In this document: piece after piece, positions 3,143 to 34,677 of the stretch
Numbering within the stretch: the first letter of the stretch is position 1
Layout: every line of letters starts with the position of its first letter
Translations under genes and position numbers: made by a program
Notes under the pieces: model-generated
The model's input: only the letters and a program-made list of their open reading frames with translations
Databases searched by the model: none
What the model was told of the DNA's origin: nothing
NCBI GenBank assembly: GCA_002748015.1
Contig: PDRH01000025.1
Coordinates: 1 to 34,999, forward strand
Direction of reading: 5' to 3'
DNA from: Bacteroidota bacterium
Lineage (GTDB): Bacteria > Bacteroidota > Bacteroidia > Bacteroidales > CAJPTX01
DNA length: 34,999 bases

Positions 3143-3365
3143 ACATTAGAAAGCCACCATGCCGCTGGCAAATCACGCTCAAATCGCTAAGAACCTCCGC
3201 AAAGGAAAGCGTATGGAGAACCTCATAGTGCTCCTCCACGTAGTCCATGCCCCCAAACCGCTTGAGATACAGATATGCACGCCCGGGCGCAAGACCATAG
3301 AGCTTAGCAAACTCTGAAATCAACGCCACCATGTACCGAATTCGCCCCACCTGTTCACGCTCCAT
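3111..3365 (-). CDS. DUF3791-like small protein (second copy)
   Basis: Track ORF 3111..3407. The start is placed at ATG 3363-3365 (MEREQVGRIRYMVALISEFAKLYGLAPGRAYLYLKRFGGMDYVEEHYEVLHTLSF...) because a TAnnTTTG box lies at 3397-3404. The 3' end overlaps the DUF3990 start by 32 nt. Confidence 0.6.
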   Translation of the reverse strand: MEREQVGRIRYMVALISEFAKLYGLAPGRAYLYLKRFGGMDYVEEHYEVLHTLSFAEVLSDLSVICQRHGGFLMYDGYAALPRF

Positions 3366-3396
3366 AGGCCAGCCCCCATTTGAATTACAACCTTTG

Positions 3397-3404
3397 CAAA
3401 GGTA
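3397..3404 (-). promoter_or_regulatory. Bacteroidota sigma-A -7 box (TAnnTTTG)
   Basis: The minus strand reads TTTTTGTACCTTTGCAAAGG; TACCTTTG lies ~30 nt upstream of ATG 3365. Confidence 0.4.
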
Positions 3405-3416
3405 CAAAAATAACGC

Positions 3417-4526
3417 CTACCCTCCGAAGTACACCCCCACCACCCGCTCAAAGAACCTCTCATAGGTCAAAAGCCCCTCGAAGTACACCCTACCCGCGCG
3501 CCCCATAGCCTCACGCCGACCCGCATCCGCCAGGAGCTCCCCTATGGCATGCGCCAGAGCCTCCGCATCGCCTGGCGGCACCAGCACCCCGGCCTCCGAT
3601 GACACGATCTCCCCCTGCGCACCACCGTTGCTAGCTATCTGCGGCTTGCCGGCCGCCAGGTAGTCCATGCAGGAGAGCGGACAGGCCTCCCGCGCCAGCG
3701 AGGGGAGCACCCCTATATCCGCCTGTGCCAGGTAGGGGAAGACCGGCGATTGGAAGCCCAGGAAATCCACCCGTCCAGATAGCCCCTGTCGCTCTATCTC
3801 CGCTCTTAACCCGCCTACGTACCCCTCATCCCCGCTACCCAGCAGGAAGAGATGGTAATCATCAGCCTGCAGCAAGCCCAGAGCCTCTATCAGCACATGG
3901 AGACCCTTCTCCTCGCATAGCCGCCCATGCGACATCAGGATAGGCCGACCAGCAGGAACACCATACTCCCGCCGCAACTCGGGCGCATCAAACGCCCCTT
4001 CCGGAAGGAATACCCCATTATGAACTACAGAATGCGGCCCATCAAAAGCCCCCACCCCCGATAGGAACACCGACTGCGCCAACTCCGACACGAAGATGAT
4101 GTGGTCCAGCTGCCTATACAGCCAGCGGTAGTGCGGCGACTTCTTCCCCCGCTTCACCAGGTGGCGCGTCAGGATTATTCTGCAACGCCTATGCCCCGCA
4201 ATCCGCCGGGCCAGCGCCGCCGTGAAGGCCGTCTTGAAGTTGTGCGCATGGAGTATCACCCCCTCCTCCGCACGCAGTAGACGCGCCAGGGCCACCGCGC
4301 TCCTAATGTCTAATAGCCCTTTCAGGCCAAGAGTATGCACCGGTGTTCCCAGCTCCTGCAGCCGCTCCACCACGGCAGGATAGGGCGCGGCTACAAGCGT
4401 TACACCGTAGCCCTCTGCTAGCAAACGCCGGGAGAGATCGTAGGCGTACTGCTCCCCCCCGCCCCAGCTCGGGTTGGCCACCAGCTGGAACACCCGCCAG
4501 CTACCACTCCCCACGCTCACGCCCAT
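3417..4526 (-). CDS. Glycosyltransferase family 4
   Basis: 369-aa ORF with ...NPSWGGGEQYAYDLSRRL... at the N-terminus and a GT-B C-terminal half (LGFQSPVFPYLAQADIGVLPSLAREACPLSCMDYLAAGKPQIASNGGAQGEIV). ATG 4526 overlaps the GT2 gene by 26 nt; an alternative GTG at 4491-4493 (VFQLVANP...) avoids the overlap. Confidence 0.85.
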   Translation of the reverse strand: MGVSVGSGSWRVFQLVANPSWGGGEQYAYDLSRRLLAEGYGVTLVAAPYPAVVERLQELGTPVHTLGLKGLLDIRSAVALARLLRAEEGVILHAHNFKTAFTAALARRIAGHRRCRIILTRHLVKRGKKSPHYRWLYRQLDHIIFVSELAQSVFLSGVGAFDGPHSVVHNGVFLPEGAFDAPELRREYGVPAGRPILMSHGRLCEEKGLHVLIEALGLLQADDYHLFLLGSGDEGYVGGLRAEIERQGLSGRVDFLGFQSPVFPYLAQADIGVLPSLAREACPLSCMDYLAAGKPQIASNGGAQGEIVSSEAGVLVPPGDAEALAHAIGELLADAGRREAMGRAGRVYFEGLLTYERFFERVVGVYFGG

Positions 4527-5360: not shown

Positions 5361-7982
5361 CTACAGCCCCAGCTGGCCCTTCAGCGCGCTGATCTTCGCC
5401 TCCGCATCCGCCAGCTTACGACGCTCAGCCTCTACAACCGCCGCCGGAGCATTGTTCACAAAGCGCTCATTCGAGAGCTTCTTCAGCACTATATCCCGGA
5501 AGCCCTCATTATACTCCAGCTCCTTCTGCAGCTTGGCACGCTCCTCCTCCTCGTCCACCAAACCCGTCAGCGGCACGAAGAACTCCGTACGCCCCACCAG
5601 GAAGGACGATGCCCCATCGGGCGCACCCTCAGTTGCAGACAGCTCGCCGATGAAGCCCACGCCCCGCACGATATCCGCCCCCTGCTCCGACAGGCCCAGC
5701 TCCCCGCGGTAGAGCAGCTGCAGCGGCGCCTTAGGCGAAAGCCCCTTCGACTGGCGCACCGCCCGAACGCTCGCCACGATGTCCTTTATCCGCGCGTACT
5801 CCGCCAGCAGCTCCGCGCTCGCCGGCTGCACCTCCGGCATGGGCTGCACCATCAGGCTCTCCTCCTCGCGCCCGCTGCCCAGGTGGTGCCACAGCTCCTC
5901 CGTGATGAAGGGCATGAAGGGGTGCATCGCCGTCAGCAGCGTGTCGAATAGCCCCTGCACCTGCGCCAGCGTCTTCCCATCTATCTTCTCCCCGTAGGCC
6001 GGCTTCACCATCTCCAGCAACCAGGCCGAGAAATCATCCCAGAACAAGCGGTACAAATCCACCAGCGCCTCGGATATCCGATAGCCCTCGAAGTTCACCT
6101 CAACGCTGCCCAACACCTCATGCATCCGCGCCTCGAATAGCTCCACCGCCCGGGCAGATGCCGCCGGCTGCGCCTTCCCCTCGTCCACCTCCCAGCCCTT
6201 CACCAGGCGGAAGGCATTCCATATCTTATTGCAGAAGTTACGCCCCTGCTCGGTCAATGCCTCGTCGAACAGCAAATCGTTGCCCGCGGAGGAGCATAGC
6301 AGCATACCCACGCGCACACCGTCAGCACCGTACTTGTCCATCAGCACCAGCGGGTCCGGGCTGTTGCCCAGCGTCTTGCTCATCTTCCTATGCTGCTTGT
6401 CGCGCACTATGCCCGTTAGGTACACATTCGAGAAGGGCTTCTCCCCCTTGTACTCGTAGCCCATCATTATCATGCGCGCCACCCAGAAGAAGATAATCTC
6501 CGGCGCAGTAACCAAATCGTTCGTCGGGTAGTAGTACTTTACCTCCTCGTTCTCCGGGTCCAGGATACCGTTGAACAGCGACAGCGGCCACAGCCACGAC
6601 GAGAACCACGTATCCAGCACGTCCTCATCCTGCTTCAGGTCCTCCACCTTCAGCGACGGGTCGCCCGCCAGCTCCTGCGCCAGCGGCAAGGCCTTCTCCA
6701 CGCTCTCGGCCACCACGTAGCGCCCATCCGGCAGGTAGTAGGCCGGAATCCTATGCCCCCACCACAGCTGCCGCGAGATGCACCAGTCATGCACATTCTC
6801 CATCCAGTGGCGGTACATCCCCTGGAACTTCGGCGGAATCAGCGCGATATCCCCGCCCAGCACCGCCTCCAATGCGGGCTTCGACATCTGGTCCATGCGC
6901 AGGAACCACTGCGTCGAGAGCTTCGGCTCGATCGCCACATACGTCCGCTCGCTGAAGCCAACGCTATGCACGTAGTCCTCCACCTTCTCCATCAGGCCCG
7001 CATCCTCCAGATCCTGCACTATCTGCTTGCGCACATCGAAGCGGTCCATGCCCAGGTACAGGCCAGCCGCCTCATTGACCGTTCCATCATCGTTGAAGCA
7101 GTCGATGGACGGCAGGTTATGCTTCAGCCCGATGTTGTAGTCATTGATATCATGCGCCGGCGTAATCTTCAGCGCCCCCGTCCCGAACTCCAGGTCTACA
7201 TACGGGTCGAAGATCACCGGCACCTCCCGGTTCACCAGCGGCACTATCACCTTCTTGCCCTCGAGGTCCGCCCGCCGCGGATCCTTATCGTTCAGGCACA
7301 CGGCCACGTCCCCCATGATGGTCTCCGGGCGTGTCGTTGCCACAATCAGCGATGCATCCGAATCCACCACCCTGTAGCGCAGGTAGTAGAGCTTGCCGTC
7401 CACCTCCTTGTGCACAACCTCCTCATCCGAGAGGGCCGTCTGCGCCTTCGGATCCCAATTCACCATCCGCACCCCCTTGTAGATCTTCCCTTTGTTGTAG
7501 AGGTCGCAGAACACGTGGATCACGCTGTCCGACCGCACCTCGTCCATCGTGAAGGCCGTACGATCCCAGTCGCACGATGCCCCCAGCCGCTTGAGCTGCT
7601 CGAGGATGATACCCCCATGCTCATCCACCCACTCCCACACATGCTCGAGGAACTGCTCGCGCGTCAGCGAATTCTTCTCTATCCCCTTGCCGCGGAGCCG
7701 CTCCACCACCTTCGCCTCCGTGGCGATGGAGGCGTGGTCCGTCCCCGGCACCCAGCACGCATTGTACCCCTTCATCCGCGCGCGCCGGGTCAGCACGTCC
7801 TGCAGGGTGTTGTTGAGCATATGACCCATGTGGAGGATACCCGTCACGTTCGGCGGCGGAATAACTATGGTGTAGGGGGTTCGCCCATCCGGCACGGAGT
7901 GGAAGTAGCCCCTCTCCATCCAGGTCTGATACCATCTATCCTCTATGGCGCGCGGTTCGTACTTCGTCGAGAGCTCTTGCAT
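5361..7982 (-). CDS. valS: Valine--tRNA ligase
   Basis: 873 aa. Class-I HIGH motif ([16 protein letters not shown]), KMSKS ([10 protein letters not shown]), the editing domain and a C-terminal coiled coil ([21 protein letters not shown]). Confidence 0.97.
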
Positions 7983-31938: not shown

Positions 31939-32583
31939 CTAGGGGGCCAAGCGCTCAAGCTGCCACTCGCCATTGAAGAGCGTATACTGCAACCTATCGT
32001 GGAGGCGGCTCGGACGCCCCTGCCAGAACTCCACCACCTCGGGGGCCAGGCAGTAGCCCCCCCAGTTCGTCGGGCGCGGAATCTCCTGGCCGTTGTACTC
32101 CTCCTGGAAGTCCGACTGCAGGGTATCGAGGTACTTACGGCTTGGTATCACCTGGCTCTGCGGACTCGCCCACGCCCCCAGGCGGCTCTGCGGATCGCGC
32201 TGTGCAAAGTACCTATCATTCTGGGCATCATCCAGACGCTGCGCCTGCCCCTCAACGCGCACCTGCCGCTCCAGCGCGGGCCAGTAGAACACCGCCGAAG
32301 CGTAGGGATTCTGCAGCAGCTGACCGCCCTTCTTGCTCTCGTAGTTCGTGAAGAAGTACAGCCCCCGGGCGTCCAGGCGCTTAATCAGCACGATACGCGC
32401 GCTGACCCGACCCTGAAAGGTACTCGTGGACAGGCACATAGCCGTCGGAGAAACCTCCGGTAGGGCGATCGCCTTGCGCAGCCAATCGGACAGCTGCTCC
32501 AGAGGATGGGCCTTCACCTCACCCTCCGATAGCGAACCGCTACCGAACTCTACCGGAACACTCGTGTAGTCTTCACCCCGCAT
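31939..32583 (-). CDS. pdxH: Pyridoxamine 5'-phosphate oxidase
   Basis: 214 aa. ...RIVLIKRLDARGLYFFTNYESKKGGQL...AVFYWPALERQVRVEG...FWQGRPSRLHDRLQY... with the typical ...ERLAP C-terminus. Confidence 0.92.
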   Translation of the reverse strand: MRGEDYTSVPVEFGSGSLSEGEVKAHPLEQLSDWLRKAIALPEVSPTAMCLSTSTFQGRVSARIVLIKRLDARGLYFFTNYESKKGGQLLQNPYASAVFYWPALERQVRVEGQAQRLDDAQNDRYFAQRDPQSRLGAWASPQSQVIPSRKYLDTLQSDFQEEYNGQEIPRPTNWGGYCLAPEVVEFWQGRPSRLHDRLQYTLFNGEWQLERLAP

Positions 32584-32647: not shown

Positions 32648-34468
32648 TCAAATCCTAAAGTGGCTTATGATGTCCTTAAGACGCTCGCCAGAGGCGGTCA
32701 GCTCCTGGCTGGTGGACGCTAGCTCCTGGCTGGTGGACGCATTCTGCTGCGAGATACTATTGAGCTGGACAATGGCGCTATTCACCTGCTCCACCCCGCT
32801 CTTCTGCTCCGTGCTGGCCGCCCGGATCTCGCTCACCAGCGCCGACGTCCGTTCTATCTCTGGGACGATCGCCTCCAGGCTGCGACCAGCATCCATCGAG
32901 AGCGAGGTCGTGCGCGCCGAAAGCTCCAGAATCTCCACGGCGGCCTCCTGGCTACGCTCGGCCAGCTTACGAACCTCCGCCGCCACCACCGCAAAACCAC
33001 GACCATGCTCACCAGCCCGCGCCGCCTCCACCGCCGCGTTCAACGCCAGAATATTCGTCTGCGCGGCAATCTCGCTGATGATGGCAATCTTCTCGTTAAT
33101 CAGCCGCGTCGAATCCACCGCCCCCACCGCCTGCGAACTGACCAAACGTACCTCCTGGGTCGCACGATCAGACTTGGCCTCGGTCACCCGCGCATTCTCC
33201 TCATTCTGCTCCACGTTGGCCACAATCTCCCCCATCGTCGAGCCAATCTGCTCGGCCGACACCGCCTGCTGCCGCGCCCCCGCAGACATCTGCAGCGAGG
33301 TGCTATTCATCCGCAGACTCGCCTCCAGCAGGCTGTCCGCATTGCCGCTTATCTCGTTGACGATGCCCCGCAGCTGCTCCACCATAGTCCCCAGGGAAGC
33401 CGACAGGAGGCCTATCTCATCCTCCCGCTCTATCCTAACATCCACCTCGCCGTCCAGCCGCCCTTCAGCCACCAGCCGCAGTGCCCCCGACACCCGCCGT
33501 AGCGGCACCGAAATCCGCCGAGAAGCGTACCACACCAGGAACAATGTCGCCAAGAAAATCGCCAATCCAAAGCCTACCATCAGCAGCCGAGCCTCATTGA
33601 TACGCCCGGTGAACTCATCCACCGGCGCCTGTAGCCCTAGCCCCCAGCCCGTCAGCGGCATATTCGCATAGCCCGTCCCGAAGTCCCGACCATCCCACTT
33701 GAACACGCTATAGCCTTCAGCCCCCGGCTCCAGCATCATACGCTCCACCGCGGCCACCTTACGGAACACCGGATCGGTCTTCGCCACCTCCGCCGAATTC
33801 CAACGCTCCGTCACAAAATGATAATCCGCCTCCAGGCTCTCCGCTATAACATTCCCCGACCGACCAATGATGAAGCTATGCCCTGTTTTCCCCGCCCCTA
33901 TATCTGCAATCTTCTCGCTGAGCCAATGGGCATCCACGCACACATTAATCGCCCCGACTATCACCCCGTCCTGCTTCAGCGGCGCGCTGAAGGCCACTAT
34001 CAAATTCTCCGTCAGGACATCATCGAAGGGCTCCGAGGCCAGCCGCTCACCCGCCATGGCCACCTTCCACCACTCCTGGTGCGCACAGGGAAACGTTCCC
34101 CCATCATGCAGGTATCCATTCCCCTCCGTATCGGCCAGGCTGATATATACCAGCCTGTCCGACTGGTAGATCGCATACAGACGGTCTATCCGCTCACCCC
34201 AGCTCAGGCTATCGTTGTACAGGAACGGCATGTTGCTCATACCCTCAATCACCTCGAAAAGCCCCAGCACCCGCACCTCCACCAGCTTCGCCGCAATCGC
34301 CGCCTTATCCGACAGCTCATTGCGCACCTGCTCGTGCACCGAAACGCGCGCCGAGCGAACCGCCAGCGAAGTCATCACAATCAGCGAAAGCGAGAGTAGA
34401 CCACCGAACACCAGCATCAACCGTAGCCCCACGGACCGTATTGACAGCCCCCTTCTTCGTAGCTCCAT
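32648..34468 (-). CDS. Methyl-accepting chemotaxis protein (TM1, dCache-like periplasmic domain, TM2, HAMP, MCP signalling domain)
   Basis: Track ORF 32648..34582. The start is placed at ATG 34468 ([37 protein letters not shown]) because the extra 38 aa are encoded by the hairpin repeat. HAMP: [21 protein letters not shown]...[18 protein letters not shown]. Signalling hairpin tip: [41 protein letters not shown]. Confidence 0.85.
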
Positions 34469-34518
34469 CAGCAAGAACTTTATTGTACCCCTATTCGGCT
34501 TATCGCTACTCGCTACTC

Positions 34519-34548
34519 TAGGCATGCGGCAAGCCGCTATGCCTACGG
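34519..34548. repeat. 30-nt hairpin repeat, copy B
   Basis: TAGGCATGCGGCAAGCCGCTATGCCTACGG. The internal hairpin is GGCAT-GCGG-CAAG-CCGC-(T)ATGCC. It lies in the MCP 5' leader. Confidence 0.75.
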
Positions 34549-34669
34549 GCTGCTTACGAGCCACTGCGCCAAACAGGAGCATTTGTATCGAATGGGTAGC
34601 CCGTAGCGGCCGCCAGCTCGCCGCACCGCAATAAACCGAATTGGGGGGTGTTTTAGCACTCCGTGTCTA

Positions 34670-34677
34670 CAAATATA
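34670..34677 (-). promoter_or_regulatory. -7 box (TAnnTTTG), candidate MCP promoter
   Basis: The minus strand reads GGATTTTGTATATTTGTAGAC. This would give a ~195-nt leader to ATG 34468. Confidence 0.4.

What the first reader, a model, noticed from the sequence alone, without database searches (positions are those of the whole stretch)
32648..34677. Orphan dCache-HAMP methyl-accepting chemotaxis protein in a Bacteroidota-type context
The ORF has the full MCP architecture: two TM helices bracketing a ~270-aa Cache-like sensor, a HAMP domain, and the near-invariant signalling tip [31 protein letters not shown].

Everything else in the window points to Bacteroidota (T9SS CTD, TAnnTTTG promoters, gene families). 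That phylum generally lacks flagella and Che pathways. No cheA, cheW, cheY, cheR or cheB gene is visible in the 35 kb, and the neighbours are pdxH and an unrelated edge gene.

The signalling module after HAMP is also short, about 240 aa. This could be an MCP repurposed for a non-flagellar output such as gliding or gene regulation, or a horizontally acquired orphan.
Basis: partly seen in the sequence, partly recalled or inferred. Interest (0 to 1): 0.6.

Follow-up and report, generated by a model that had tools for sequence, protein, structure and literature searches.

The report
Chemoreceptor of a flagellum-less Bacteroidales chemosensory pathway
The gene is a real, intact chemoreceptor, but it is not an orphan: it is one of about 24 receptors serving a complete chemotaxis-type signalling pathway in a bacterial lineage that has no flagella or type IV pili, so what the pathway steers (most likely gliding) is the open question.

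Summary
The ORF is real. It is a 606-aa receptor (window 32648-34468, minus strand) built as TM1, dCache_1, TM2, HAMP and a 34-heptad (34H) signalling hairpin. It has methylation-type motifs and no CheR-tethering pentapeptide.

"Orphan" is refuted.
- The 69%-complete, 1.44-Mb MAG holds about 24 MCP genes. All 22 complete ones have a 34H-length C-arm.
- It has one STAS-cheY-cheA-cheW-cheR-HK-cheD-cheB operon.
- CheA is single-copy and 68-74% identical in 12 of 13 sister genomes. All 13 carry MCPs.
- CheA occurs in 54 of 151 sampled genomes of the order.

The non-flagellar part of the reading holds.
- FlhA was found in 0 of 151 genomes of the order.
- FliM was found in 0 of 14 genomes of the genus.
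- No flagellin was found in the MAG, and no PilB/PilT ATPase in the genus.
- GldJ, GldD, GldM and GldB (T9SS/gliding) genes are present.
- CheA is almost confined to GldJ-positive genomes (51 of 53).

My reading is that this is a routine, native receptor of a multi-receptor, non-flagellar Che pathway. The output is unproven, and control of gliding is the most likely candidate. A conserved, unannotated ~600-aa helical protein lies next to CheA in at least 26 genomes and is the most novel item.

First-stage notes of this scan flag the same "orphan MCP in Bacteroidota" pattern in at least seven other genomes.

The parts
32648..34468 (-). MCP coding sequence: 606 aa from the ATG at 34468 (Met39 of the longest ORF), stop codon at 32648-32650
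   Evidence: ORF. Domains. Start codon from comparison with orthologous contigs L087/L088 and from the 606-aa length of the homologue in sister genome G004. Gene callers chose Met56, giving 589 aa.
34358..34426 (-). TM1 (residues ~53-75 of P0001)
   Evidence: Kyte-Doolittle 19-residue windows score above 1.6.
33635..34339 (-). Periplasmic dCache_1 sensor (residues 82-316)
   Evidence: Pfam PF02743, E 7.9e-22. AlphaFold model with pLDDT 89. Foldseek matches to Tlp3, PctA, Mlp24 and CtaA ligand-binding domains. The pocket motif reads H-Q-E-W-W where paralog L090 has R-K-R-P-W-Y.
33524..33589 (-). TM2 (residues ~332-353)
   Evidence: Hydropathy.
33368..33523 (-). HAMP domain (residues 354-405)
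   Evidence: Pfam PF00672, E 4.2e-9. It aligns with Tsr HAMP.
32651..33367 (-). 34H signalling hairpin (residues 406-644). The tip Glu525 codon is at 33008-33010. Methylation-type motifs lie at Q439, 593, 599, 613, E620 and E627. There is no C-terminal pentapeptide.
   Evidence: Pfam PF00015, E 2.6e-31. The alignment with E. coli Tsr (6s1k) shows 7 fewer residues in each arm and ends at Tsr residue 517. Arm lengths are 119 + 119 residues and the motifs are listed.
34670..34677 (-). TAtaTTTG Bacteroidota-type promoter-like box of the MCP gene
   Evidence: The same box plus the following TAGACACGGAGTG..TAAAA is conserved in L087/L088.
34469..34652 (-). Repeat element of ~180 nt inserted in the 5' leader, with a 30-nt hairpin core at 34519-34548
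   Evidence: It is absent from the orthologous leaders. There are 60+ partial copies on more than 40 contigs of the same genome.
31939..32583 (-). pdxH, 64 nt downstream on the same strand. Its position next to the MCP is kept in the orthologous contig.
   Evidence: Pfam PNPOx_N and PNP_phzG_C. L087 has the MCP followed by pdxH.

Best explanation
The gene encodes a functional transmembrane chemoreceptor of the 34H class.

**Proposed mechanism.** A small molecule binds the periplasmic dCache_1 domain. This is probably not a canonical amino-acid site. The signal passes through TM2 and HAMP to the hairpin tip. There the receptor, together with about 23 paralogs that have other sensors, controls the genome's single CheA-CheW complex. 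CheA phosphorylates a single-domain CheY. CheR, CheB and CheD adapt the receptor at Glu/Gln pairs.

**Origin.** The pathway is native and vertically inherited in this genus, and it works without flagella or type IV pili.

**Output.** The most likely output is modulation of T9SS-driven gliding, meaning speed or reversal of surface movement.

**Shown:** the receptor architecture, the pathway genes, conservation across the genus, and that flagellar and pilus genes were not found.

**Inferred:** that this receptor signals to that CheA, that the motifs are methylated, and the gliding output.

**Odds.** I put about 0.9 on "native receptor of the non-flagellar Che pathway". I put about 0.4 on the whole statement including the gliding output.
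For: **Receptor.**
- Domain architecture and fold.
- The signalling half aligns end to end with Tsr.

**Uniform receptor set.**
- 22 of the 23 MCPs with a complete signalling domain end 120-122 residues after the tip, and none has a pentapeptide. The exception (C36) carries a long C-terminal extension.
- The methylation consensus recurs at fixed positions among the 23: -80 in 16, -73 in 11 and +68 in 13.

**Pathway.**
- Operon cheY-cheA-cheW-cheR-HK-cheD-cheB on contig C67.
- CheA is single-copy and 68-74% identical in 12 of 13 sister genomes.
- MCPs occur in 13 of 13 sister genomes, at 3-27 matches each.

**Native gene.**
- TAnnTTTG box and pdxH synteny are kept in an ortholog that is 81% identical in the sensor.
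- A genome-wide repeat element sits in its leader.

**No flagella or pili found.**
- FlhA in 0 of 41 and 0 of 151 genomes.
- FliM in 0 of 14.
- No flagellin.
- No T2SSE ATPase over the cut-off in the genus.

**Gliding/T9SS genes.**
- GldJ-like genes at E 1e-105 to 1e-138 in all 14 genus genomes.
- GldD and GldM over the cut-off, and GldB just under it.
- Across the order, 51 of 53 CheA-positive genomes are GldJ-positive, against 70 of 97 CheA-negative ones. Fisher one-sided p = 1.4e-4.

**Many receptors, one kinase.** Twenty-one scanned receptors carry varied sensors: dCache_1 in 5, sCache_2, dCache_2 or Cache_3-Cache_2 in one or two, and none recognised in the rest. By established knowledge, many diverse receptors on one kinase is the pattern of taxis systems. 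Single-receptor Wsp- or Pil-Chp-type systems look different.
Against: - No gliding has been observed. The organism is an unnamed MAG.
- GldD is nearly universal in the order (133 of 151) and GldJ is common (122 of 151). Both also occur in many CheA-negative genomes, so their presence does not show gliding.
- SprB repeats were found in only 2 of 5 genus genomes, and no giant SprB-like adhesin was seen.
- The CheA-GldJ association is between related genomes and may reflect shared loss in reduced, host-adapted lineages.
- The operon also carries a STAS protein and a sensor-less histidine kinase. These hint at a partner-switching or phosphorelay output instead.
- No link between Che proteins and the gliding motor is described in the papers I could search.
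- The MAG is 69% complete, so absence within it rests on its relatives.
Confidence: 0.4

Rival explanations
1. The receptor and pathway are the same, but the output is not motility. CheY-P, or the sensor-less histidine kinase in the operon, acts through the STAS protein in a partner-switching or phosphorelay circuit. That circuit would set gene expression, secretion or surface properties, making this an "alternative cellular function" system.
For: - A STAS gene lies directly upstream of cheY in the sister genomes, and a fragment of it is present in the MAG.
- A soluble DHp + HATPase kinase without a sensor lies between cheR and cheD in every operon examined.
- Che1 of Shewanella, which has a STAS partner, is linked to RpoS control (abstract of PMC9855816, seen).
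- No motility organelle has been shown to be present.
Against: - About 24 receptors with varied sensors feed one CheA. By established knowledge, known non-motility systems use one or a few dedicated receptors.
- There is a free-standing single-domain CheY and a full CheR/CheB/CheD adaptation set.
- CheA is almost confined to GldJ-positive genomes.
Confidence: 0.35
2. The Che system and its receptors are a decaying remnant with no current function.
For: - One sister genome (G004, 74% complete) shows no CheA and only 3 MCP matches.
- An insertion lies in this gene's leader.
Against: - 23 of 24 MCP frames are open.
- CheA is kept at 68-74% identity in 12 genomes.
- The whole operon is intact in three sister genomes.
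- Receptor numbers are high for genomes of about 2.2 Mb.
- Between Met39 and Met56 the ortholog differs mainly by synonymous changes.
Confidence: 0.05
3. The gene is a recently acquired horizontal orphan, or the contig is mis-binned from a flagellated organism.
For: - Outside the genus, the best matches to the signalling half are in Methylococcaceae and Spirochaetaceae MAGs, at 42-47% identity.
- The gene's GC is 60.5% against 57-58% for the contig and genome.
Against: - The same contig carries a T9SS-tail protein and Bacteroidales-type families.
- It has a TAnnTTTG box and a repeat element shared with more than 40 other contigs.
- Own-genome paralogs are as close or closer, at 40-50% identity.
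- Estimated contamination is 0.54%.
- The che operon is conserved across the genus.
- CheA is closest, at 46% identity, to CheAs in MAGs labelled Paludibacter and Draconibacterium. The spirochaete MAG gives 41% full-length and the Methylococcaceae MAG 43% partial.
Confidence: 0.03
4. It is an ordinary flagellar or type IV pilus chemotaxis system whose motility genes are simply missing from draft assemblies.
For: The MAG is 69% complete and fragmented into 142 contigs.
Against: - FlhA was found in 0 of 148 genomes that are at least 90% complete across the order.
- FliM was found in 0 of 9 high-quality genus genomes.
- No T2SSE ATPase scored over the cut-off in 13 genus genomes.
- The control genomes gave the expected hits in every one of these searches.
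Confidence: 0.03

Closest known systems
E. coli Tsr/Tar (36H transmembrane MCPs; PDB 6s1k, 8c5v, 1qu7)
   Same: Same layout of TM, sensor, TM, HAMP and hairpin. The tip is nearly identical. The two align over the whole cytoplasmic part (E 3e-40). Glu/Gln pairs lie at positions matching Tsr Q297, E304, Q311 and E493.
   Different: Each arm is one heptad shorter (34H, not 36H). The sensor is dCache rather than a four-helix bundle. There is no flexible tail and no NWETF pentapeptide. The host has no flagella.
34H receptors of F8-class systems (P. syringae PSPTO_0912; Methylomicrobium alcaliphilum F8; PMC11253619, PMC7184735)
   Same: Same rare heptad class with two TM segments. The nearest signalling domains outside the genus come from Methylococcaceae MAGs, where the receptor lies on the same contig as a CheA.
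   Different: Those hosts are flagellated and have one 34H receptor beside many 40H ones. PSPTO_0912 carries a pentapeptide. Here every receptor is 34H and none has a pentapeptide. The class of this CheA could not be assigned with the tools at hand.
dCache_1 ligand-binding domains of Tlp3, PctA/B/C, Mlp24, CtaA and McpH
   Same: Same predicted double-Cache fold (Foldseek E about 1e-13, TM 0.6-0.78).
   Different: Sequence identity is 11-19%. Where paralog L090 has R-K-R-P-W-Y, this protein has H-Q-E-W-W. From memory, that motif carries the carboxylate-binding Arg of amino-acid sensors, so an amino-acid ligand is unlikely. The ligand is unknown.
Che genes reported in 'Candidatus Bacteroides periocalifornicus' (Torres et al. 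2018, PMC6275135)
   Same: [quoted passage not shown] Sister genome G005 (about 2.5 Mb, about 50 contigs) may be that organism.
   Different: The identity of G005 is not shown. The paper read the che genes as "flagellar assembly proteins" implying motility, and did not note the lack of flagellar genes, the receptor class or the operon partners.
Frz (Myxococcus gliding/twitching) and Pil-Chp (type IV pili) chemosensory systems
   Same: Che-type pathways that steer surface motility without flagella.
   Different: Those use one dedicated receptor (FrzCD, PilJ) and act on different motors. Type IV pilus ATPases were not found here. No homology to their outputs was tested.

Membership tests
Methyl-accepting chemotaxis protein (PF00015) | Signalling domain with a conserved hairpin tip | tested here: met
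   109 bits against a cut-off of 34.6. Aligns with Tsr at E 3e-40.
Methyl-accepting chemotaxis protein (PF00015) | Glu/Gln pairs fitting [ASTG]xx[EQ][EQ]xx[ASTG], and actual methylation | tested here: inconclusive
   Motifs are present at Q439, 593, 599, 613, E620 and E627, and recur at fixed positions in the paralogs. CheR, CheB and CheD are present. Methylation itself cannot be tested here.
dCache_1 sensor | Double PDC fold between two TM helices | tested here: met
   Pfam E 7.9e-22. Model with pLDDT 89, and Foldseek hits to dCache ligand-binding domains.
dCache_1 amino-acid sensor subfamily | Conserved R-x-W-Y pocket motif (recalled from the literature, not re-read here) | tested here: not met
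   H-Q-E-W-W stands where paralog L090 has R-K-R-P-W-Y.
34H heptad class | 17 heptads in each arm of the hairpin | tested here: met
   119 + 119 residues. There is one 7-residue deficit per arm against 36H Tsr. The class-specific HMMs of MiST were not available.
Pentapeptide-bearing MCPs | C-terminal NWETF-like CheR/CheB tether on a flexible linker | tested here: not met
   The protein ends at the position of Tsr residue 517 with ...SHFRI.
Orphan MCP (no cognate pathway) | No CheA or CheW in the genome | tested here: not met
   A cheA-cheW operon lies on C67.
Flagellar (F-class, functional sense) chemotaxis system | Flagellar export apparatus, switch and filament genes present | tested here: not met
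   FlhA in 0 of 151 genomes, FliM in 0 of 14, and no flagellin in the MAG.
F8 phylogenomic class | CheA, CheW, CheB and CheR match the F8 class models | not testable with these tools
   There are only indirect hints: 34H receptors and Methylococcaceae-like signalling domains (PMC7184735).
Tfp chemosensory class | Type IV pilus machinery present | tested here: not met
   No T2SSE (PilB/PilT) match over the cut-off in 14 genus genomes.
ACF (non-motility) chemosensory class | A dedicated receptor and a non-motility output encoded in the cluster | tested here: inconclusive
   STAS and a sensor-less HK in the operon speak for it. About 24 dispersed receptors and a free CheY speak against it.
T9SS gliding apparatus | GldB, GldD, GldH, GldJ, GldK-N, SprA/E/T plus a SprB-type adhesin, and observed gliding | tested here: inconclusive
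   GldJ, GldD and GldM are present and GldB scores just under its cut-off. SprB repeats were found in 2 of 5 genomes. GldH, GldK/L/N and SprA/E/T were not searched. The phenotype is unknown.

The most novel reading that the evidence does not exclude
This receptor belongs to a uniform 34H receptor family that steers T9SS-driven gliding. It would do so through a Che pathway that also includes a conserved, unannotated ~600-aa helical protein ("X", C-terminus DDxLELF), a STAS protein and a sensor-less kinase. That would be the first molecular route for chemotaxis in gliding Bacteroidota, a group whose model species (Flavobacterium johnsoniae) has, by my recollection, no Che genes.
Probability: 0.3. 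Interest if true: 0.75.

Novelty: new member of a known kind. Interest (0 to 1): 0.42.

Why it matters
On its own the gene is an ordinary chemoreceptor, and the "orphan" puzzle dissolves once the whole genome is read.

The context is what deserves attention.
- About a third of sampled genomes of this order carry CheA, and none carries a flagellar export gate.
- This small-genome genus packs up to 27 MCP matches into about 2.2 Mb.
- The pathway has conserved partners of unknown role: protein X, a STAS protein and a sensor-less kinase.

If the output is gliding, these genomes offer a direct way to ask how gliding Bacteroidota sense gradients.

There is also a practical lesson for the scan. "Orphan MCP in Bacteroidota" notes are recurring, with at least seven others on record. 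They should be checked against the whole genome before being scored as anomalies.

Tried and rejected
- **Naming the organism.**
  - Scans of genome contigs and metagenome contigs with the MCP returned only distant relatives.
  - No sequencing run was listed.
  - The link to 'Ca. Bacteroides periocalifornicus' therefore rests only on genome size, contig number and GC.
- **Protein X as a CheZ homologue.**
  - The [FY]QDxxxQ-like motif and the acidic ...LELF tail looked like CheZ.
  - hhalign against E. coli CheZ aligned only that motif, with a gap (probability 0.14%, E 0.41).
  - Pfam CheZ does not hit X or the genus genomes.
  - The model of X (pLDDT 77) is a long all-helical bundle with no meaningful PDB match (TM below 0.3).
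  - Homology rejected. Function is open.
- **GldD as a marker of gliding.** It is nearly universal in the order (133 of 151), so it was dropped as a discriminator.
- **SprB repeats.** Found in 2 of 5 genomes, which is inconclusive.
- **Donor lineage from a signalling-domain tree.** Not built. Own paralogs (40-50% identity) and foreign 34H receptors (42-47%) are equally distant, so a tree of this conserved domain would not resolve an ancient transfer.
- **Literature.** Seven searches found no paper on Che control of Bacteroidota gliding. Wuichet & Zhulin 2010 is not held.
Full report
**1. The observation**

The longest open frame runs 32648..34582 on the minus strand and gives 644 aa.

- Pfam finds dCache_1 at residues 82-316 (E 7.9e-22), HAMP at 354-405 (E 4.2e-9) and MCPsignal at 463-628 (E 2.6e-31).
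- Two hydrophobic segments, at about 53-75 and 332-353, bracket the sensor.
- An AlphaFold model of residues 72-338 (pLDDT 89, pTM 0.84) matches solved dCache ligand-binding domains of chemoreceptors such as Tlp3, PctA/B/C, Mlp24, CtaA and McpH (Foldseek E 1e-13 to 1e-11, TM 0.6-0.78).
- The window carries no che gene. Its other genes are of Bacteroidales type: a BspA-LRR/Big_2 protein with a weak T9SS tail, DUF6266, AAA-ATPase_like and PDDEXK_2.
- TAnnTTTG boxes are three times over-represented, at 25 against 8.3 expected.

**2. Gene limits**

Two contigs from another assembly (GCA_002754885.1 and run SRR6011892) encode an ortholog that is 81% identical in the sensor and is also followed by pdxH. 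In those contigs the same box, plus TAGACACGGAGTG..TAAAA, lies about 35 nt upstream of the ATG that corresponds to Met39. From Met39 to Met56 the protein is kept through synonymous changes. The homologue in sister genome G004 is also 606 aa.

I therefore place the start at 34468, giving 606 aa. Gene callers chose Met56, giving 589 aa.

In the window, a ~180-nt element (34469-34652) sits between the box and the ATG. Its 30-nt hairpin core and longer versions recur more than 60 times on more than 40 contigs of the same genome. This also marks the contig as native.

**3. The gene is not an orphan**

The window is contig C39 of a 1.44-Mb MAG with 142 contigs, 69% completeness and 0.5% contamination. 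That genome holds 25 MCPsignal matches in about 24 genes.

Contig C67 carries, on one strand:
- a STAS fragment at the contig end
- cheY
- cheA (Hpt, dimerisation domain, HATPase and CheW domains)
- cheW
- cheR
- a 315-aa soluble histidine kinase core
- cheD
- cheB, cut by the contig end

Only two CheW-domain matches exist, so no CheV was found.

In three sister genomes the full operon reads X-STAS-cheY-cheA-cheW-cheR-HK-cheD-cheB. CheA is single-copy and 68-74% identical in 12 of 13 sister genomes. All 13 have MCPs, at 3-27 matches each in about 2.2 Mb.

**4. Receptor class**

Against E. coli Tsr (36H), the protein lacks 7 residues in each arm and ends exactly where the Tsr bundle ends, at residue 517. 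The arms measure 119 + 119 residues, which is 17 + 17 heptads. This is the 34H class, a known minor class (PMC11253619, PMC7184735). The "short" module is not a truncation.

Of the 23 MCPs of the genome with a complete signalling domain, 22 end 120-122 residues after the tip. The remaining one (C36) carries a long C-terminal extension (C-arm 358 residues). None has a pentapeptide.

The methylation consensus recurs at fixed distances from the tip among the 23: -80 in 16, -73 in 11 and +68 in 13. This receptor has motifs at Q439, 593, 599, 613, E620 and E627.

Sensors differ among the 21 receptors scanned: dCache_1 in 5, other Cache types in one or two, and none recognised in the rest.

In this receptor's pocket the sequence is H-Q-E-W-W, where a paralog has R-K-R-P-W-Y. 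From memory, that motif marks amino-acid sensors, so I do not expect an amino-acid ligand.

This particular sensor is rare. Only one other protein shares it in the word-indexed search. In sampled sister genomes the best full-length match is 39% identical.

**5. Motility apparatus**

| Gene family | Result |
|---|---|
| FlhA | 0 of 41, then 0 of 151 genomes of the order (148 at least 90% complete) |
| FliM | 0 of 14 in the genus |
| Flagellin | none in the MAG |
| PilB/PilT-type ATPase | none over the cut-off in the genus |
| CheZ, CheX | none in five genus genomes |
| GldJ-like | E 1e-105 to 1e-138 in all 14 genus genomes |
| GldD, GldM | over cut-off |
| GldB | just under cut-off |

Control genomes gave the expected hits in each search.

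**6. How routine this is in the lineage**

In 151 genomes drawn across the order:

| Feature | Genomes |
|---|---|
| CheA | 54 |
| GldJ (E <= 1e-50) | 122 |
| GldD over cut-off | 133 |

Fifty-one of 53 CheA-positive genomes are GldJ-positive, against 70 of 97 CheA-negative genomes. The one-sided Fisher p is 1.4e-4. The two exceptions are a fragmented assembly that does hold a GldJ fragment and a marginal CheA hit.

Related genomes are not independent. Joint loss in reduced host-adapted lineages could produce the same pattern, so I treat this as suggestive only.

CheA of the MAG is 46% identical to CheAs in MAGs labelled Paludibacter propionicigenes and Draconibacterium orientale. This is closer than to a spirochaete MAG (41%, full-length) or a Methylococcaceae MAG (43%, partial).

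[quoted passage not shown] It read them as flagellar (PMC6275135).

**7. Mechanism**

Shown:
- an intact receptor with a native promoter-like box
- a complete pathway with an adaptation set, conserved in the genus
- a uniform receptor class that fits a single kinase
- no flagellar or pilus genes found

Inferred:
- this receptor signals to that CheA
- it is methylated
- CheY-P acts on the gliding machinery

I favour gliding (about 0.4 for the full chain) for two reasons. Many diverse receptors on one kinase, with a free CheY, is the design of taxis systems. The only motility-related machinery present is T9SS/Gld.

The main rival (about 0.35) is a non-motility output through the STAS protein and the sensor-less kinase in the operon. 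Decay, recent transfer, mis-binning and hidden flagella are each unlikely, as set out under the rivals.

**8. Protein X**

An unannotated ~600-aa protein precedes STAS-cheY-cheA. A profile of it finds matches in 32 of 151 genomes. All 32 are CheA-positive, and in at least 26 the match lies within about 2-4 kb of the CheA hit on the same contig.

It has invariant motifs, including ..LQ[YF][QH]DIIRQK[MI]EHIQ....YTMxSEHxIHD.. and a C-terminal DDxLELF.

Its resemblance to the CheZ active-site motif and CheY-binding tail is not supported statistically. Its predicted fold is a long helical bundle without a PDB match. It is the least understood and most novel part of the system.

**9. Verdict**

The gene is a new member of a known kind. 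Its "orphan / horizontal acquisition" idea fails, and its "non-flagellar output" idea stands, untested.

First-stage notes of this scan flag the same pattern in at least seven other genomes. That fits the 35% CheA frequency found here.

Noticed in passing
L086:5885-7732 (+), L085:5894-7870 (+), L084:6144-7940 (+); alignments A1 and A4: An unannotated ~600-aa all-helical protein ("X") lies upstream of STAS-cheY-cheA. It is found in 32 of 151 genomes of the order, all of them CheA-positive and mostly adjacent to cheA. It has invariant motifs and a DDxLELF tail. CheZ homology is not supported, and there is no structural match.
   Followed up: partly
window 34469-34652; also G000 contigs C4 (~3278-3808) and C129 (~5812-6085): The MCP leader holds a ~180-nt repeat element whose 30-nt hairpin core recurs more than 60 times in the MAG. 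On C4 the copies are spaced 126 nt apart (5 copies) and on C129 about 72 nt apart (4 copies). This could be a REP/MITE-like family or a repeat array.
   Followed up: partly
L016:1108-2055 (-) (G000 contig C67): A 315-aa soluble histidine kinase core (coiled coil, DHp and HATPase, with no sensor domain) lies between cheR and cheD. It is conserved at 65-69% identity in three sister operons.
   Followed up: partly
L017:493-9170 (+) (G000 contig C111): A second methylation-type cluster without CheA: CheR, GAF protein, CheR-like, CheB without a receiver domain, GAF protein, GAF-PAS-PP2C phosphatase, DUF6272 and SiaC. It resembles the CheR/CheB-plus-phosphatase-switch operon noted earlier in this scan.
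   Followed up: no
G000 contig C36:1716-4130 (+) (L157): One MCP carries a ~238-aa extension after the end of the 34H bundle, ending ...DSDYESF. All the others stop at the end of the bundle.
   Followed up: no
whole MAG G000 and sister genomes: Receptor density is very high for small genomes: about 24 MCP genes in 1.44 Mb here, and up to 27 matches in 2.2-2.5 Mb in sisters G010 and G012. Sister G004 (74% complete) shows only 3 MCP matches and no CheA.
   Followed up: partly
window 32651-34417 versus 32651-34468: Public gene calls start this MCP and its ortholog at Met56 (589 aa). That cuts off the conserved cytoplasmic N-terminus and the first residues of TM1. Met39 (606 aa) fits the conservation better.
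   Followed up: yes
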